This document shows positions 2,877 to 41,373 of a DNA stretch of 64,000 bases, piece after piece. A program made the translations under genes and the position numbers. Source of the DNA: an uncultured Pelagibacteraceae bacterium. Lineage in GTDB: Bacteria > Pseudomonadota > Alphaproteobacteria > Pelagibacterales > Pelagibacteraceae. The stretch lies in NCBI GenBank assembly GCA_902519375.1, contig CABYJS010000003.1, positions 12,837 to 76,836 on the forward strand, given 5' to 3'. Below the pieces are notes generated by a model. That model did not search any database. It had not been told where the DNA came from and saw only the letters and a list, made by a program, of their open reading frames with translations. How positions within the stretch are numbered: the stretch's first letter is position 1; each line of letters begins with the position of its first letter.

Positions 2877-3881
2877 CTAATCCAATAGCTCTTTCATTTC
2901 AATTCTAATTTGATTTGAAATTTTAATCCTTTTTTTGCTATTTACTCTATTTCTTGCATATTTGTTTTGTCCGGGATACATAATTTCTTTGACTCCTTTA
3001 ACCTTTGGTAGCTTCTTAATTTTTATGAAATTATATCTAACTCTACTATTAAAATTTTTCACAAATAAATTATTTTTGAATACAATAAATAAATGCCCTA
3101 CATTTTGTGGCCCAGAAAAATCATCAAAAGGGTCTTTTACTTCACCTGCATGACTGCTTCCTGTTAAAACCCCACTTAATATATCGACCATCCATGCCAA
3201 TCCTGATCCCCTATATCCAGCGATCGGCAATTGAACACCCTCTAGAGCCTTGTTTGGGTTAATTGTAGGTTTTCCGGATTTATCTAACGCAACACCTTTT
3301 GGAATTTTTGTGTTTGTTTTGGACGCAAATCTAATTTTTCCTCTATTGATCACTGACATTGATGTATCTAAAATAAATGGCACTTTTGAACCAGATGGAG
3401 TTCCGAAACATATTGGGTTTGTTCCAAATAAACTTTTTCGTGCTCCGTGGGGTGCAATAGCAGGGGGCGCATTTGTATATATCATTGCAATCAAATTTTT
3501 TTTAACAGCTTGCTCTGCGTAATAACCAGACAAACCATAATGGTTACTATTTTTTACAGCGACCATTCCAATTCCAGTTTTTTTTGCATTTTTTATTGCC
3601 CTTTTAATTGCTAAATCTGCAGCAACAAAACCTATACTATTATTCGCGTCTATATGTGAAATAGATTCTGATAATTTTTTTATACTTATTTTAGGTTTTG
3701 GATTAATTAATTTTCTTTTTATTCTTTCACAGTACATTTTAAGTCTTGAAAGACCGTGTCCATAAGCTCCAACTAATTCAGCATTGATTATTGCTTCAGC
3801 GCATATTTTTGAATGTAACAAAGATAAATTATGTTTTCGTAAAATTTTAATTATTGTATTTTTTAACTCTTTATTTTTCAT
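2877..3881 (-). CDS. Ldh_2 family oxidoreductase (ComC-like L-sulfolactate/malate/lactate dehydrogenase)
   Basis: GHGLSRL, NSNHYG, GTNPI and GYRGSGLAWMVDIL motifs. Confidence 0.8.
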   Translation of the reverse strand: MKNKELKNTIIKILRKHNLSLLHSKICAEAIINAELVGAYGHGLSRLKMYCERIKRKLINPKPKISIKKLSESISHIDANNSIGFVAADLAIKRAIKNAKKTGIGMVAVKNSNHYGLSGYYAEQAVKKNLIAMIYTNAPPAIAPHGARKSLFGTNPICFGTPSGSKVPFILDTSMSVINRGKIRFASKTNTKIPKGVALDKSGKPTINPNKALEGVQLPIAGYRGSGLAWMVDILSGVLTGSSHAGEVKDPFDDFSGPQNVGHLFIVFKNNLFVKNFNSRVRYNFIKIKKLPKVKGVKEIMYPGQNKYARNRVNSKKRIKISNQIRIEMKELLD

Positions 3882-17140: not shown

Positions 17141-17205
17141 TTCCCTCTAAATGAAATTGATAATTTGTGATCAATATATTTAAATTTTTTAAAAAAAAAA
17201 GAATT

Positions 17206-34422: not shown

Positions 34423-34457
34423 TGAATTATTAAAAATAACAATAGAGGGAAATAATA

Positions 34458-39183: not shown

Positions 39184-40518
39184 TTGTTGCTTAATAGGGG
39201 TGCTTTTGTGTTTAACTTAAAGGAAATTATATCTTCAATTGCTGACGTAGGCCAAAAACTATTCAAAAAAAGCGTAGTCAAGAAAAATGACTTAGAGTCA
39301 ATAATCTCACTATGTGATGATTTAATTTCAAACAAAGGAGCAGCATTTGGGATTACTGTAGCAAGAGATATTACCGATTTATATCAAACATTAAGCCATG
39401 AAAAAAAATTATTATTCTTTAAAAAAATTAATGAAAGGTTTAAACCTAATCATTCAAAGGTTTCTGAGGCTATAAATCTCTATAAAACAGAAGAAAATGA
39501 TAAAAACCTTTTCAAGCTATTCATTACCGCAGAGGGTCAAAGAAGGGAATTATTTAGAAGAATGAATATGTCTCCTAATGGAATTTCAACAATTGTTTCA
39601 TTGAGAGAAGATCTTCTTAAAATTTTAAATGAAAATAGAGAATTAAAACCATTAGATAATGATTTAAGAGAGTTGTTTAAATCTTGGTTTAATCCTGGGT
39701 TTCTAAAACTTGCAAAGATTACTTGGGATACTAAAGCTGCAGTTTTAGAAAAAATCATTCAGTACGAAAGAGTACATAAAATAAAAGATATGAACGAACT
39801 TAAAAGAAGACTTGGAGAGGATAGAAGATTTTTTTCTTATTTTCATCCTGCATTAGAGGATGAACCAATAATATTTGTTCAAGTAGCACTTACAAACGGT
39901 TTAGGAAAATCTATTCAAGAAATAATGAAGCCTAGAACTGAAGGAGAAAAAAAATATGATACTGCTACCTTTTATTCAATAAGTAATTGTCAAGAAGGTC
40001 TTTCTAGAGTAACGCTTGGAAACTTCTTAATTAAAAGAGTTGTTTATGAAATTCAGGAAGAGTTACCTAATATTAAAAACTTCGGTACACTTTCTCCAAT
40101 CCCAGGATTTAGAGACTGGTTTACAACATTGGATGAAAGTATTATCAAGAATATTTTGGGTAAAATACCTTATACAAATATTTCATTTTTAAAAAACTCG
40201 AATTTAAAAATAGGTGATGGAAGAATTGTATCTAATAAGAATGCTATAATTAAATTGGTTGCTCATTACTTAATAAACGAAAAAAATAAAAAAAATCTTC
40301 CAATTAACGATGTTTGTAGATTTCATTTAGGAAATGGTGCAATAGTTGATGATATTATTATTAATGCGAATGTTTCAGAGGTTGGTTTTAATAGGTCTTT
40401 TGGAGTTATGGTAAATTACCTATATGAATTAAAGAATATCGAAAAAAACCATGAAGATTATATAAACAATAAAAAAATTATTGTTTCTGATAAACTAAAA
40501 AAACTAATACAATTTTAA
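39184..40518 (+). CDS. Malonyl-CoA decarboxylase (start possibly the GTG at 39208)
   Basis: SWFNPGFL, YERVH, FFSYFHPA..DEPIIFVQVAL, FYSISNCQ.GL, GNFLIKRV, TLSPIPGF, FHLGNGA, SFGVMVNYLY. Confidence 0.9.
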   Translation: MLLNRGAFVFNLKEIISSIADVGQKLFKKSVVKKNDLESIISLCDDLISNKGAAFGITVARDITDLYQTLSHEKKLLFFKKINERFKPNHSKVSEAINLYKTEENDKNLFKLFITAEGQRRELFRRMNMSPNGISTIVSLREDLLKILNENRELKPLDNDLRELFKSWFNPGFLKLAKITWDTKAAVLEKIIQYERVHKIKDMNELKRRLGEDRRFFSYFHPALEDEPIIFVQVALTNGLGKSIQEIMKPRTEGEKKYDTATFYSISNCQEGLSRVTLGNFLIKRVVYEIQEELPNIKNFGTLSPIPGFRDWFTTLDESIIKNILGKIPYTNISFLKNSNLKIGDGRIVSNKNAIIKLVAHYLINEKNKKNLPINDVCRFHLGNGAIVDDIIINANVSEVGFNRSFGVMVNYLYELKNIEKNHEDYINNKKIIVSDKLKKLIQF

Positions 40519-40721
40519 TTATTATTAGTACCCCATTTAATTTTGTTCCAAATTCTTTCATGAAAATAATAAAAGAAAAGTGGAATAATTGAACCTAAAC
40601 CTAATGCCCCTGCAACTTTAAATGAACCAGTAAATATATAGCCAAATAACATCCAATATATAAAAATTAAGAATCTCCAAGAGAATGTTTTCGCAACTGA
40701 TCTAATTTTTTTATCTGACAA
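40515..40721 (-). CDS. DUF2061-like small membrane protein (TTG start)
   Basis: RSVAKTFSWR...YYFHERIWNKIKWG. Confidence 0.75.
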   Translation of the reverse strand: MSDKKIRSVAKTFSWRFLIFIYWMLFGYIFTGSFKVAGALGLGSIIPLFFYYFHERIWNKIKWGTNNN

Positions 40722-40741
40722 AAAAAAATTCTATTTAAGGG

Positions 40742-40815
40742 TTGGGGTGGTTTCAGTCTCCCTCTACCACCCTAAAAAGATAATAAGTGATTCTCAATAA
40801 AACATAAATCGCTTA
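40742..40815. ncRNA. Candidate structured RNA (two hairpins)
   Basis: Locally GC-rich. Stem 40742-40751/40766-40775 with loop ttcagtctccctct, and stem 40784-40792/40807-40815. The G-U wobbles work on the + strand. Confidence 0.45.
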
Positions 40816-40853
40816 ATAATTGAAAAATGAGTTGTTGATAAATATGAAAAAAT

Positions 40854-41174
40854 TTACGGCAGGGGTTCTGGTTCTACAACTTCAGATACTTCAATATTTT
40901 TGATTTTCAAAGTGATAAGAATTGAAGAATCTTCTAAATCATCATGGAATTTCTTTATCAAATTAGTTTTCATTTTTGAAAAATTTTCTTTTTTAACTTT
41001 TAAATTTTTTTTTATGTTTTCTAAAGCTTTATTAGAACTATAAGATAAAGATGTTTGATAAATACTTCCAGACTTAACCCCAGTAATAACAGGGCCCAAA
41101 AGAGCTGTTCCAGGATTAGCTGAACAATTAAGAACTAAAAAGAATAATAATAACAAATAAAAGTTTCTGATCAT
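40854..41174 (-). CDS. Putative lipoprotein (likely start MIRNF at 41174)
   Basis: Hydrophobic signal ending in the lipobox-like LVLNC; C-terminal EVVEPEPLP. Confidence 0.6.
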   Translation of the reverse strand: MIRNFYLLLLFFLVLNCSANPGTALLGPVITGVKSGSIYQTSLSYSSNKALENIKKNLKVKKENFSKMKTNLIKKFHDDLEDSSILITLKIKNIEVSEVVEPEPLP

Positions 41175-41373
41175 AGATATGTGACACATCTATATGATTC
41201 TTAATTAATACAAATTGTTTTTTTATTCTTTTACAAAAATCAATTACACGTTTAAATTGAAATATTTTTTAGATAAAAATTTAACTCAATATTACTCAAT
41301 AAAAAAAATTTTTTAACCCAAATTTAACACTCTAAATGTATTAAAAAATCAATTTCTATTTTAACTTTTTGCA

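What the first reader, a model, noticed from the sequence alone, without database searches (positions are those of the whole stretch)
40742..40815. Candidate small RNA with an exposed loop complementary to transporter ribosome-binding sites
Seen: a conspicuously GC-rich intergenic patch. Hairpin 1 is ttggggtggt/accaccctaa (10 bp) with a 14-nt loop ttcagtctccctct; hairpin 2 is taagtgatt/aatcgctta. Each stem has one G-U pair that works only on the + strand, antisense to both flanking genes, and neither is directly followed by a U-tract, so this is not a simple terminator. TCCCTCTA (40759-40766) is the exact complement of TAGAGGGA in the RBS of dctP (34443-34450) and of the BASS transporter (minus strand, 17142-17149), and partly matches the tauA and second dctP RBSs. 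Known: alphaproteobacterial AbcR and cuckoo sRNAs repress transporter mRNAs through anti-SD loops. Inference: a SAR11 analogue. Alternatively, it is a minus-strand leader element for the TTG-starting DUF2061 gene.
Basis: partly seen in the sequence, partly recalled or inferred. Interest (0 to 1): 0.7.

Follow-up and report, generated by a model that had tools for sequence, protein, structure and literature searches.

The report
SAR11 sRNA-1 hairpin shared with pelagiphages
The flagged GC-rich patch is this genome's copy of a catalogued but uncharacterised SAR11 small RNA ('sRNA-1'). It is read from the strand opposite to the one proposed, and its invariant hairpin tip also occurs in the viruses that infect SAR11.

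Summary
The hairpin at 40742-40775 is real. It is not a plus-strand anti-Shine-Dalgarno sRNA. It is the window's copy of the 'sRNA-1' motif of Stav et al. 2019 (PMC6429828; the HIMB5 copy coincides with my model hit), which is absent from Rfam 15.

- **Distribution.** It is single-copy and found in 90/107 Pelagibacter genomes and 9/9 genomes of a second genus.
- **Structure.** The outer stem covaries and the loop core GGGAGACU is invariant.
- **Strand.** Four things put the RNA on the window's minus strand: a U-run after the hairpin (96/149 against 0-4/149 on the plus strand); fixed-spacing promoter-like boxes upstream; G-U pairs in the second genus; and sense-oriented copies in phages.
- **Promoter.** The invariant GAATC box matches the GcrA/CcrM methylation-site consensus and sits in a -35/-10 spacer.
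- **Other claims.** The RBS complementarity is at chance level (3 matches against 1.42 expected).

New here: loop positions 3 and 12 covary, which gives an inner mini-helix capped by a GAGA tetraloop. The same module occurs in cultured pelagiphages (HTVC027P, 031P, 201P, 022P) and in 239 IMG/VR contigs, usually 10-20 nt upstream of a start codon. The function is unknown. The published partner, PBC-3, does not compensate changes in the sRNA loop.

The parts
40803..40824 (-). Conserved 'box A' (TTCAAY TAWW AAGYG type) with a weak -35-like TTnAnA at its 3' edge. It is conserved as primary sequence.
   Evidence: Position weight matrix of 147 unique relatives anchored on GAATC: positions -31 to -15 are strongly conserved, at a fixed 31 nt from GAATC. 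No covariation with downstream bases.
40788..40794 (-). Invariant A-GAATC-R box. It is a GANTC (CcrM) site, and on the opposite strand it reads Y-GATTC-T, which fits the GcrA consensus YGAKTCK.
   Evidence: GAATC is 147/147, the preceding A 140/147, and the following purine 146/147. Consensus and position rule come from PMC4647560 and PMC9976885. GcrA and a CcrM-type methyltransferase are encoded in the genomes searched.
40780..40785 (-). -10-like hexamer TATTAT (family pattern TAnnnT), 3 nt after GAATC. The predicted start of transcription is about 40771-40775.
   Evidence: T and A are 147/147 and the sixth T 116/147. Some relatives have a perfect TATAAT here. Inference only: no transcript data.
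40745..40772 (-). Hairpin P2 of sRNA-1: a 7-bp outer stem (8 bp in most relatives) enclosing the 14-nt loop 40752-40765.
   Evidence: Covariation: 95.9% of cells paired, 5 of 8 pairs changed on both sides, 0/500 shuffles reach the score, and slid controls collapse. Further compensated stems occur in HTCC1062, in genus g8 and as 27 stem types in phages.
40754..40763 (-). Apical module: a 3-bp mini-helix (N3.N12, G.U, G-C) capped by the GNRA tetraloop GAGA (40757-40760).
   Evidence: GGGAGACU is invariant in 149/149 host copies. RNAalifold predicts the G.U and G-C pairs. Positions 3 and 12 covary: A/G 52, C/U 66, G/C 4, C/C 4, A/A 3.
40720..40744 (-). Pyrimidine-rich tail ending in U9 (40720-40728). 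It corresponds to the U-run that directly follows the hairpin in most relatives.
   Evidence: A U-run of at least 6 of 9 sits right after the stem in 96/149 relatives, against 0-4/149 on the other strand. In this clade a C-rich insert separates the stem from the U-run.
40515..40721 (-). DUF2061 membrane-protein gene. Its TTG start overlaps the end of the U-run, so it is probably expressed by read-through from the sRNA-1 promoter.
   Evidence: Pfam PF09834, E = 5.5e-13. The same arrangement occurs in 40 of 155 unique loci, often as U-run followed directly by ATG. Genome G312 has the order element-lipoprotein-element-DUF2061.

Best explanation
The patch is the window's copy of the SAR11 'sRNA-1' gene. 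This is a single-copy, stand-alone transcription unit on the minus strand.

**Shown here.**
- A block of fixed geometry lies upstream: box A, then 31 nt to an invariant GAATC, then 3 nt to TAnnnT.
- A hairpin follows. Its outer stem covaries freely. Its apex, an inner 3-bp helix capped by a GAGA tetraloop with two A's on the 3' side, is invariant from Pelagibacter to a second genus.
- A U-rich tail follows the hairpin.

**Inferred.**
- The block is a sigma-70 promoter. Its spacer carries a CcrM-methylated, GcrA-type site, so transcription is tied to the replication and cell cycle.
- Transcription starts at or just before the hairpin. The product is a very short RNA of roughly 40-65 nt.
- In this window part of the transcription reads through into DUF2061.
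- The RNA works through its exposed, Shine-Dalgarno-like purine apex as a recognition module. It either pairs with a CU-rich loop, or is bound by a conserved host factor. The published pairing candidate is the PBC-3 leader of a cytochrome c biogenesis gene, with a 10-nt match in this genome.
- Pelagiphages of at least two lineages carry the same module just upstream of primase or tail genes. This implies that whatever recognises the apex belongs to the host and is exploited by the phages.
For: **Identity.**
- My covariance model hits HIMB5 at 401480-401566 on the minus strand.
- That lies inside NC_018643.1/401637-401488, listed as 'sRNA-1, Short RNA, 1038 representatives'. The listing gives the same neighbours (PGM, TauE, HIT, tRNA), the same GAAUCA and the same loop sequence GAGGGAG.

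**Distribution.**
- One copy per genome. The strict pattern matches 183/274 genomes of the genus, against 1 match for the reversed-pattern control.
- The model finds it in 90/107 genomes of g1, 9/9 of g8 and 1/1 of g10. It finds none in 13 genomes of four other genera of the family, and none in 20 of the sister family.

**Structure.**

**Strand.**

**Promoter-like block and GcrA-type box.**

**Independence from neighbours.** 103 of 155 unique loci have a convergent gene downstream, and 17 have a divergent gene upstream.

**PBC-3.**
- The CU-rich loop core CUCCCUCU is conserved in 23 genomes.
- G000 has a perfect 10-nt complement to the window's loop.

**Phages.**
Against: - There is no transcript evidence of any kind. 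The Red Sea start-site table has no entry at the HTCC7211 locus, but that file was cut when stored.
- The window's own -35 is poor, and the consensus scan reports no promoter or terminator here.
- 36% of copies lack a U-run next to the stem.
- Stav et al. draw a second hairpin (P1) upstream and treat GAAUCA as RNA. That implies an earlier start than I infer.
- PBC-3 does not compensate sRNA loop changes. The GU-type and HTCC1062-type loops face an unchanged CUCCCUCU.
- BLAST did not find PBC-3 in genus g8, which does have the sRNA.
- No other conserved locus of 10 nt or more complementary to the loop exists in five genomes, four of them 99-100% complete and one 94%.
- No candidate binding protein has been identified.
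Confidence: 0.55

Rival explanations
1. The RNA is a protein- or ribosome-binding decoy rather than a base-pairing sRNA. In this reading the invariant GNRA-capped apex with its flanking A's is a docking site for a conserved SAR11 factor. That factor could be an RNA-binding regulator, a ribosomal protein or the 30S subunit. The chromosomal RNA titrates the factor, and the phage copies recruit or sequester it next to their start codons.
For: - The apex is invariant while both the outer stem and the putative RNA partner fail to co-vary with it.
- The 3/12 covariation is internal to the loop.
- Phage copies lie a median of 19 nt upstream of a start codon, and 222 of 239 lack a U-run.
- The loop repeats 10 consecutive bases, plus UGAAG, of the cell's own 23S rRNA L1-stalk region.
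Against: - No candidate protein is known.
- Hfq, CsrA and ProQ were not found in 5 genomes.
- The similarity to 23S does not share the same pairing register.
- A single hairpin is a weak sponge.
Confidence: 0.25
2. The element is a cis-acting leader or attenuator. In this reading it is mainly the promoter plus 5' leader of the small co-oriented genes that follow it, which here is DUF2061. The hairpin and U-run act as an attenuator that sets read-through.
For: - In the window the U-run overlaps the DUF2061 start codon.
- 40 of 155 unique loci have DUF2061 downstream and 2 have the lipoprotein gene.
- Genome G312 has one copy in front of each of the two genes.
Against: - About two thirds of loci have a convergent gene right after the hairpin and nothing to regulate.
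- The element is conserved where DUF2061 is absent, including in genus g8.
- The frequency of the U-run is the same with and without DUF2061.
Confidence: 0.1
3. The element is an ordinary intrinsic terminator of the upstream lipoprotein or phosphoglucomutase gene and has no function of its own.
For: - A co-oriented gene lies upstream in 86 of 155 loci (PGM 68, lipoprotein 18).
- A U-run follows the stem in 64% of copies.
- In some T7-like pelagiphages the hairpin lies after the capsid gene, where T7 has its T-phi terminator (the T7 map is from my own knowledge).
Against: - Terminator loops are not conserved, yet here 8-12 loop bases are invariant in 149 host copies, across three genera, and in phages.
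- A 14-nt loop is atypical for a terminator.
- Conserved fixed-spacing boxes sit upstream.
- 17 loci have a divergent gene upstream.
- 222 of 239 phage copies have no U-run.
Confidence: 0.05
4. One reading: a plus-strand sRNA whose CU-rich loop represses transporter mRNAs by pairing with their ribosome-binding sites, in the manner of AbcR or cuckoo RNAs.
For: - The plus-strand fold of this window scores better (z = -2.28).
- The loop complement occurs at two ribosome-binding sites in the window.
- Other SAR11 hairpin RNAs, such as the rhtB motif, do have CU-rich loops.
Against: - There is no U-run or other terminator on the plus strand (0-4 of 149).
- There is no conserved promoter on that side, because the flanks vary.
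- G-U pairs in g8 and in the core stem favour the minus strand.
- Phage copies are sense-oriented with the purine loop.
- The 8-mer matches are at chance level.
- A 12-nt match in hemC is not conserved at synonymous sites.
- No Rfam family matches.
Confidence: 0.02
5. The element acts at the DNA level. In this reading it is a single-stranded DNA hairpin used as a priming, replication or recombination site, present once per replicon.
For: - There is one copy per host genome and, as far as seen, one per phage genome.
- In two unrelated phage groups it lies just upstream of the primase gene.
- The neighbouring genes are variable, as at an insertion hot spot.
Against: - The cumulative GC skew shows no switch at the site.
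- It lies 41-47% of the chromosome away from dnaA, at neither pole.
- There is no dif-like or att-like arm conservation, because the arms covary instead of being conserved.
- The strong strand bias relative to transcription in phages fits RNA better.
Confidence: 0.03

Closest known systems
sRNA-1 motif (Stav et al. 2019, BMC Microbiol 19:66, PMC6429828; Additional files 1 and 3)
   Same: It is the same locus in HIMB5 and has the same strand, the same flanking genes, the same conserved GAAUCA and the same loop sequence GAGGGAG. The window's copy is a member of this motif.
   Different: - The paper draws two hairpins and proposes pairing with PBC-3.
- Here the upstream hairpin has no covariation.
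- GAATC reads better as a promoter-spacer methylation site.
- PBC-3 does not compensate loop changes.
- The phage copies, the GNRA apex, the second genus and the HTCC1062 copy are not mentioned in the text that I could read.
rhtB motif of Pelagibacter (Meyer et al. 2009, PMC2704228)
   Same: It is a single hairpin with a conserved loop, followed by poly-U in about half of its copies, and it is restricted to the same genus (242/274).
   Different: The sequence differs, the loop is CU-rich and the locus is different. The two loops could form about 10 pairs with one bulge (-15.5 kcal/mol). However, genus g8 has sRNA-1 and no rhtB motif.
AbcR1/AbcR2 and cuckoo (alpha-r15-type) sRNAs of Rhizobiales
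   Same: They are small alphaproteobacterial RNAs that act through an exposed hairpin loop related to the Shine-Dalgarno interaction.
   Different: Their loops are CU-rich anti-SD sequences and they depend on Hfq (from my own knowledge). Here the loop is the SD-like strand. No Hfq was found and no Rfam family matches.
GcrA/CcrM-dependent promoters of Caulobacter, for example PcsM with GAATC at -22 to -18 (PMC4647560, PMC9976885)
   Same: A GANTC site matching YGAKTCK lies in the -35/-10 spacer, centred about 19 nt before the inferred start. GcrA and a CcrM-type methyltransferase are encoded.
   Different: Nothing has been tested in SAR11. The gap from the site to the -10 element is 3 nt here and 5 nt in PcsM. 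The start site is inferred, not mapped.
Lambdoid boxB (nut) hairpins and other loop-recognised phage RNA operators
   Same: They are short hairpins with a freely covarying stem and an invariant GNRA-type apex. They are present in phage transcripts and read by a protein (from my own knowledge).
   Different: No N-like protein or boxA partner was identified. The apex here is a true GAGA tetraloop on a 3-bp helix with an internal loop. The host also carries a promoter-driven copy of its own.

Membership tests
sRNA-1 motif (Stav et al. 2019) | Homology to the type locus NC_018643.1/401637-401488 (HIMB5), on the same strand | tested here: met
   Model R1, built from relatives of the window, hits G013 (1,343,202 bp) at 401480-401566 on the minus strand with E = 2.1e-15. 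It hits the window at 40743-40826 on the minus strand with 84.4 bits.
sRNA-1 motif (Stav et al. 2019) | Conserved GAAUCA, and GAGGGAG in the loop of the 3' hairpin | tested here: met
   GAATC is 147/147 and followed by a purine. The loop AGGGAGACU is 149/149. The window has GAATCA at 40788-40793 and GAGGGAG within the loop 40752-40765.
sRNA-1 motif (Stav et al. 2019) | Flanking genes: phosphoglucomutase, SulP or tRNA on one side, and HIT or TauE on the other, mostly pointing towards the spacer | tested here: met
   Neighbour census of 155 unique loci with Pfam assignments. In the window, extra genes (MCD, DUF2061, lipoprotein, an unknown gene) are inserted between TauE and PGM.
sRNA-1 motif (Stav et al. 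2019) | A conserved 5' hairpin (P1) | tested here: inconclusive
   RNAalifold does not predict it on 46 or on 16 sequences. The candidate pairing equals expectation under independence. The published drawing could not be viewed.
AbcR / cuckoo anti-SD sRNAs | Match to the Rfam covariance models | tested here: not met
   No family reaches its gathering score in the window. Only chance-level eukaryotic snoRNA or miRNA hits appear at E up to 10.
AbcR / cuckoo anti-SD sRNAs | A CU-rich anti-SD loop on the transcribed strand, with Hfq as partner | tested here: not met
   The inferred transcribed strand carries the purine loop. PF17209 (Hfq) was found in 0 of 5 genomes.
Intrinsic (Rho-independent) terminator | A GC-rich hairpin with a short loop, directly followed by a U-run | tested here: inconclusive
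   A U-run is adjacent in 96/149 relatives. The loop is 14 nt. In the window the U9 is 16 nt away and the consensus scan finds no terminator. 222 of 239 phage copies lack a U-run.
GcrA-activated, CcrM-methylated sigma-70 promoter | A YGAKTCK site centred at -20 +/- 1 (or -30 +/- 2) in the spacer | tested here: met
   The sequence Y-GATTC-T is invariant and lies 3 nt upstream of TAnnnT, so it is centred about -19 if the start is 7 nt after the hexamer. The position depends on an inferred start site.
GcrA-activated, CcrM-methylated sigma-70 promoter | N6-adenine methylation of the site and GcrA-dependent transcription | not testable with these tools
   Only the genes were found: PF07750 in 5/5 genomes and PF01555 in 5/5.
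CsrB/RsmZ-type protein sponge | A CsrA/RsmA partner and multiple GGA loops | tested here: not met
   PF02599 was found in 0 of 5 genomes. There is a single hairpin only.

The most novel reading that the evidence does not exclude
The invariant apex of sRNA-1 is a host-virus shared RNA recognition module. The apex consists of a GAGA tetraloop on a G-C / G.U / N.N mini-helix with a 3' AA.

- SAR11 makes it from a cell-cycle-linked (GcrA/CcrM-type) promoter as a tiny stand-alone RNA.
- Pelagiphages of at least two unrelated lineages have independently placed it 10-20 nt upstream of the start codons of primase or tail genes. These are the T7-like Pelagivirus group and the HTVC027P type.
- A still unknown conserved SAR11 factor, either a protein or the ribosome, reads it.
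- The chromosomal RNA and the phage copies compete for that factor during infection.
Probability: 0.3. Interest if true: 0.8.

Novelty: already known. Interest (0 to 1): 0.5.

Why it matters
SAR11 is the most abundant heterotroph in the ocean. It has very few regulators, and no Hfq, CsrA or ProQ was found in the genomes searched. sRNA-1 is the only base-pairing-type sRNA candidate that a systematic screen of HIMB5 reported, and its function is unknown.

Getting the strand right removes a false lead, namely repression of transporter mRNAs.

- **A testable promoter model.** It ties the RNA to DNA methylation and the cell cycle.
- **A defined structural module.** The apex is GNRA-capped and has internal covariation.
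- **Presence in cultured pelagiphages.** The same module occurs in phages whose hosts (HTCC1062, HTCC7211) can be grown, so infection experiments could reveal what reads it.

If the host and its phages do compete for one factor, this would be a rare documented case of RNA-level mimicry in a marine virus-host pair of global importance.

Tried and rejected
- **Rfam 15.** Searched at gathering score and at E up to 10. Nothing relevant.
- **Red Sea metatranscriptome start-site tables for HTCC7211.** No entry near 7657xx, but the file is truncated.
- **Exact-motif search of the paper library and of the Meyer 2009 supplements.** No hit. This is explained later: HTCC1062 carries a divergent loop, in an intergenic region that the paper lists without an RNA.
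- **hemC as a target.** There is a 12-nt match in G000, but it is rejected because synonymous sites vary freely in 50 relatives.
- **Genome-wide target scan for the minus-strand loop.** The best sites are antisense to genes or antisense to 23S rRNA. None is in a conserved 5' leader except PBC-3.
- **A second conserved locus complementary to the loop.** None in five genomes, four of them 99-100% complete and one 94%.
- **Kissing interaction with the rhtB-motif loop.** It is energetically possible. It is not favoured, because g8 has sRNA-1 without the rhtB motif.
- **PBC-3 covariation.** sRNA loop changes are not compensated.
- **Origin, terminus or dif site.** There is no GC-skew switch and the element lies 41-47% of the chromosome from dnaA.
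- **T7-type phage promoter reading of GGGAGAC.** Rejected because the 17 nt upstream are not conserved among phages.
- **Mini-ORF in the loop (ATG GAG GGA GAC TGA).** It is present only in one stem variant, so it is rejected.
- **Phage attachment site.** The arms covary instead of being conserved, and the site is not next to integrase genes.
- **BLASTN of the host element against cultured phages.** It finds nothing, because only the apex is shared.

Full report
**What is in the window.**
- The flagged bases lie in a 132-nt spacer (40722-40853) between two minus-strand genes. One is a lipoprotein-like ORF (40854-41189). The other is a 68-aa DUF2061 gene (40515-40721, TTG start).
- The 8-mer complementary to two ribosome-binding sites is real. 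It is not enriched: 3 matches against 1.42 expected, with 15 of 100 shuffles doing as well. The sites are ordinary GAGGG-type Shine-Dalgarno sequences.
- No Rfam family matches.

**Conservation.**
- The element is unique in its own genome, a 75% complete SAR11 assembly.
- It recurs once per genome in relatives. A strict pattern matches 183/274 genomes of the genus, against one match for the reversed pattern.
- Record titles identify the genus as Pelagibacter.
- A covariance model built from 67 diverse copies finds it in 90/107 genomes of the genus, 9/9 of a second genus (g8) and 1/1 of a third. It finds none in 13 genomes of four other genera of the family, and none in 20 genomes of the sister family.
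- Synteny is loose. The element sits between Dus-TauE on one side and phosphoglucomutase on the other. Variable small genes are inserted on either side: HIT, an unknown gene, MCD plus DUF2061, the lipoprotein, and a 368-aa unknown gene.
- One genome (G312) has two tandem copies, one ahead of the lipoprotein gene and one ahead of DUF2061.

**Structure.**
- Only hairpin 1 is supported. In 67 sequences, 95.9% of cells pair and 5 of 8 pairs change on both sides. No shuffle in 500 reaches the covariation score, and slid controls collapse.
- More compensated stems appear in HTCC1062 (GGUAG/CUACC) and in g8 (GGCAG/CUGCC).
- Loop bases 3-11 are invariant in 149 unique host copies.
Those bases are conserved as primary sequence.

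**Strand.**
- A U-run directly follows the hairpin on the window's minus strand in 96/149 copies, against 0-4/149 on the plus strand.
- Core-stem G-U pairs favour the minus strand 9 to 2. All g8 copies have a G-U pair that is valid only on that strand.
- The conserved boxes lie upstream on that strand, at fixed distances from each other and at a variable 30-33 nt from the loop.
- In phages, 217 of 239 copies lie sense to the flanking genes and carry the purine loop.
In it the outermost pair is A.C on the minus strand, which leaves a 7-bp stem.

**Upstream block.**
- With GAATC as the anchor: box A occupies -31 to -15. A-GAATC-R is invariant. T and A at +8/+9 are invariant, and T at +13 is present in 79% of copies. 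This is the signature of a TAnnnT -10 element.
- T-16, T-15, A-13 and A-11 give a TTnAnA -35 element with an 18-nt spacer.
- Read on the other strand, the invariant box is Y-GATTC-T. That fits YGAKTCK, the methylated site preferred by Caulobacter GcrA. In GcrA-activated promoters this site sits in the spacer, centred at -20 +/- 1.
- GcrA and a CcrM-type methyltransferase are encoded in every genome searched.
- This promoter reading is an inference. It places the start of transcription at the base of the hairpin, about 40771-40775.

**Identity with a published motif.**
- The HIMB5 copy (401480-401566, minus strand) lies inside NC_018643.1/401637-401488. Stav et al. 2019 list that interval as 'sRNA-1, Short RNA', with 1038 representatives. 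They give the same neighbours, the same GAAUCA and the same loop sequence GAGGGAG, and they propose pairing with their PBC-3 RNA.
- HTCC1062 has a divergent copy. It lies exactly in the GC-rich intergenic region 1142870-1143031, which Meyer et al. 2009 tabulated without assigning an RNA.
- I found no follow-up paper.
- The element is therefore already described as a candidate. Its function is open.

**Testing the PBC-3 idea.**
- The PBC-3 loop core CUCCCUCU is conserved in 23 genomes, and G000 has a perfect 10-nt complement to the window's loop.
- Loops starting AG go with ...CUCUAC, and loops starting GG go with ...CUCUGC. All four combinations would pair, so this correlation may be phylogenetic.
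- Where the sRNA loop changes at position 2 (G to U) or position 3 (A to C), PBC-3 stays the same. That cuts the duplex to 5-6 pairs.
- BLAST did not find PBC-3 in g8.
- The pairing is possible, but covariation does not support it.

**The apex.**
- Across host and phage copies, loop positions 3 and 12 covary: A/G 52, C/U 66, G/C 4, C/C 4, A/A 3.
- Together with the invariant G.U and G-C pairs that RNAalifold predicts, this defines a 3-bp inner helix capped by the GNRA tetraloop GAGA. A 2x2 internal loop separates it from the outer stem, and the 3' side of that loop is always AA.
- Invariance of this module alongside free variation of the outer stem is what one expects of a surface read by a macromolecule.

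**Phages.**
- None of those contigs has the GAATC box or SAR11 neighbours. They encode primase, helicase, major head and tail-tube proteins.
- The closest cultured relatives are pelagiphages.
- In HTVC027P the hairpin ends 10 nt before the primase start codon.
- In HTVC031P the exact motif lies between the capsid gene and the tail tubular protein A gene. HTVC168P and HTVC109P carry variants at the same place.
- In HTVC201P and HTVC022P the exact motif lies between the lysozyme and primase genes.
- Of 239 contigs, 231 have it in an intergenic position and only 17 have a U-run. The next start codon is a median of 19 nt away.
- Twenty-seven stem types are seen.
- In phages, then, it is not a terminator. 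It is an element just ahead of translation starts.

**What remains open.**
- No Hfq, CsrA or ProQ homologue was found in 5 genomes.
- No second complementary locus exists.
- An unexplained similarity was noticed. The cell's own 23S rRNA, in the L1-stalk region, contains the loop's first ten bases followed two bases later by UGAAG.
- I commit to a minus-strand, promoter-driven tiny RNA that acts through its purine apex. Base pairing to a CU-rich loop and binding by a host factor are the two live mechanisms. In this window it has a secondary role as the leader of DUF2061.

Noticed in passing
window 41190-41300 (minus strand), upstream of the lipoprotein-like gene 40854-41189: A second, degenerate promoter-like block. 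It has a box-A-like TTCAATTTAAACGTG, and about 55 nt later AAGAATCATATAG (GAATC, 3 nt, then TA) roughly 25 nt before the ATG. No hairpin follows it. It looks like a decayed copy of the sRNA-1 upstream block. In genome G312 a full copy sits at this position.
   Followed up: partly
G000 contig C11 about 3530-3550 (23S rRNA gene, sense strand): The 23S rRNA L1-stalk region (about E. coli 2107-2126) reads GGAGGGAGAC AU UGAAG. The sRNA-1 loop reads GGAGGGAGAC UGAAG in most relatives. It is not known whether this is mimicry or coincidence.
   Followed up: partly
L181 (G312:C12:3300-5900), copies at 1009-1093 and 1489-1573: A tandem duplication of the whole element, boxes plus hairpin. One copy precedes a 105-aa lipoprotein gene and the other precedes DUF2061. 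The arrangement is cassette-like.
   Followed up: partly
L205, L208, L210-L212 (genus g8 loci): In the second genus the element starts about 12 nt after the CCA end of a tRNA gene on the same strand. The gene is probably tRNA-Ser, judged by its acceptor stem. A conserved ATATCCA lies in between.
   Followed up: no
Genomes G066, G073, G077, G081, G087, G101, G125, G142, G169 and others, at about 11,760 on contig 1: One clade of Pelagibacter, which includes the genome I take to be HTCC1062, carries a second rhtB-motif-like copy ending in ...CCCTG, about 11 kb from dnaA. It is in addition to the canonical rhtB motif.
   Followed up: no
L218, L221, L250, L283, L292 and similar IMG/VR loci: In the primase-upstream phage type, a small second hairpin (UUUCYC - loop - GRGAAA) sits 3-6 nt before the sRNA-1-like hairpin, right after the stop codon of the preceding gene.
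   Followed up: no
L270, L274, L276, L279, L281, L312, L328 (IMG/VR): In one phage type the hairpin is antisense to all neighbouring genes. It is preceded by TATAAT-containing promoter-like sequence and followed by a U-run. This is a stand-alone small transcription unit like the host's.
   Followed up: no
G000 contig C1 about 12891 (minus strand): Another GAATC-N3-TATTTT arrangement lies just upstream of a gene with a strong AAGGAGG ribosome-binding site. This hints that GANTC-N3-TAnnnT may be a recurrent promoter design in SAR11.
   Followed up: no
L215 (G213:C2:51392-51675) and L207 (G206:C4:107532-107817): Extra, degenerate copies of the element lie a few kb from the intact one in two genomes. 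Their model scores are 39.8 and 53.6 bits.
   Followed up: no
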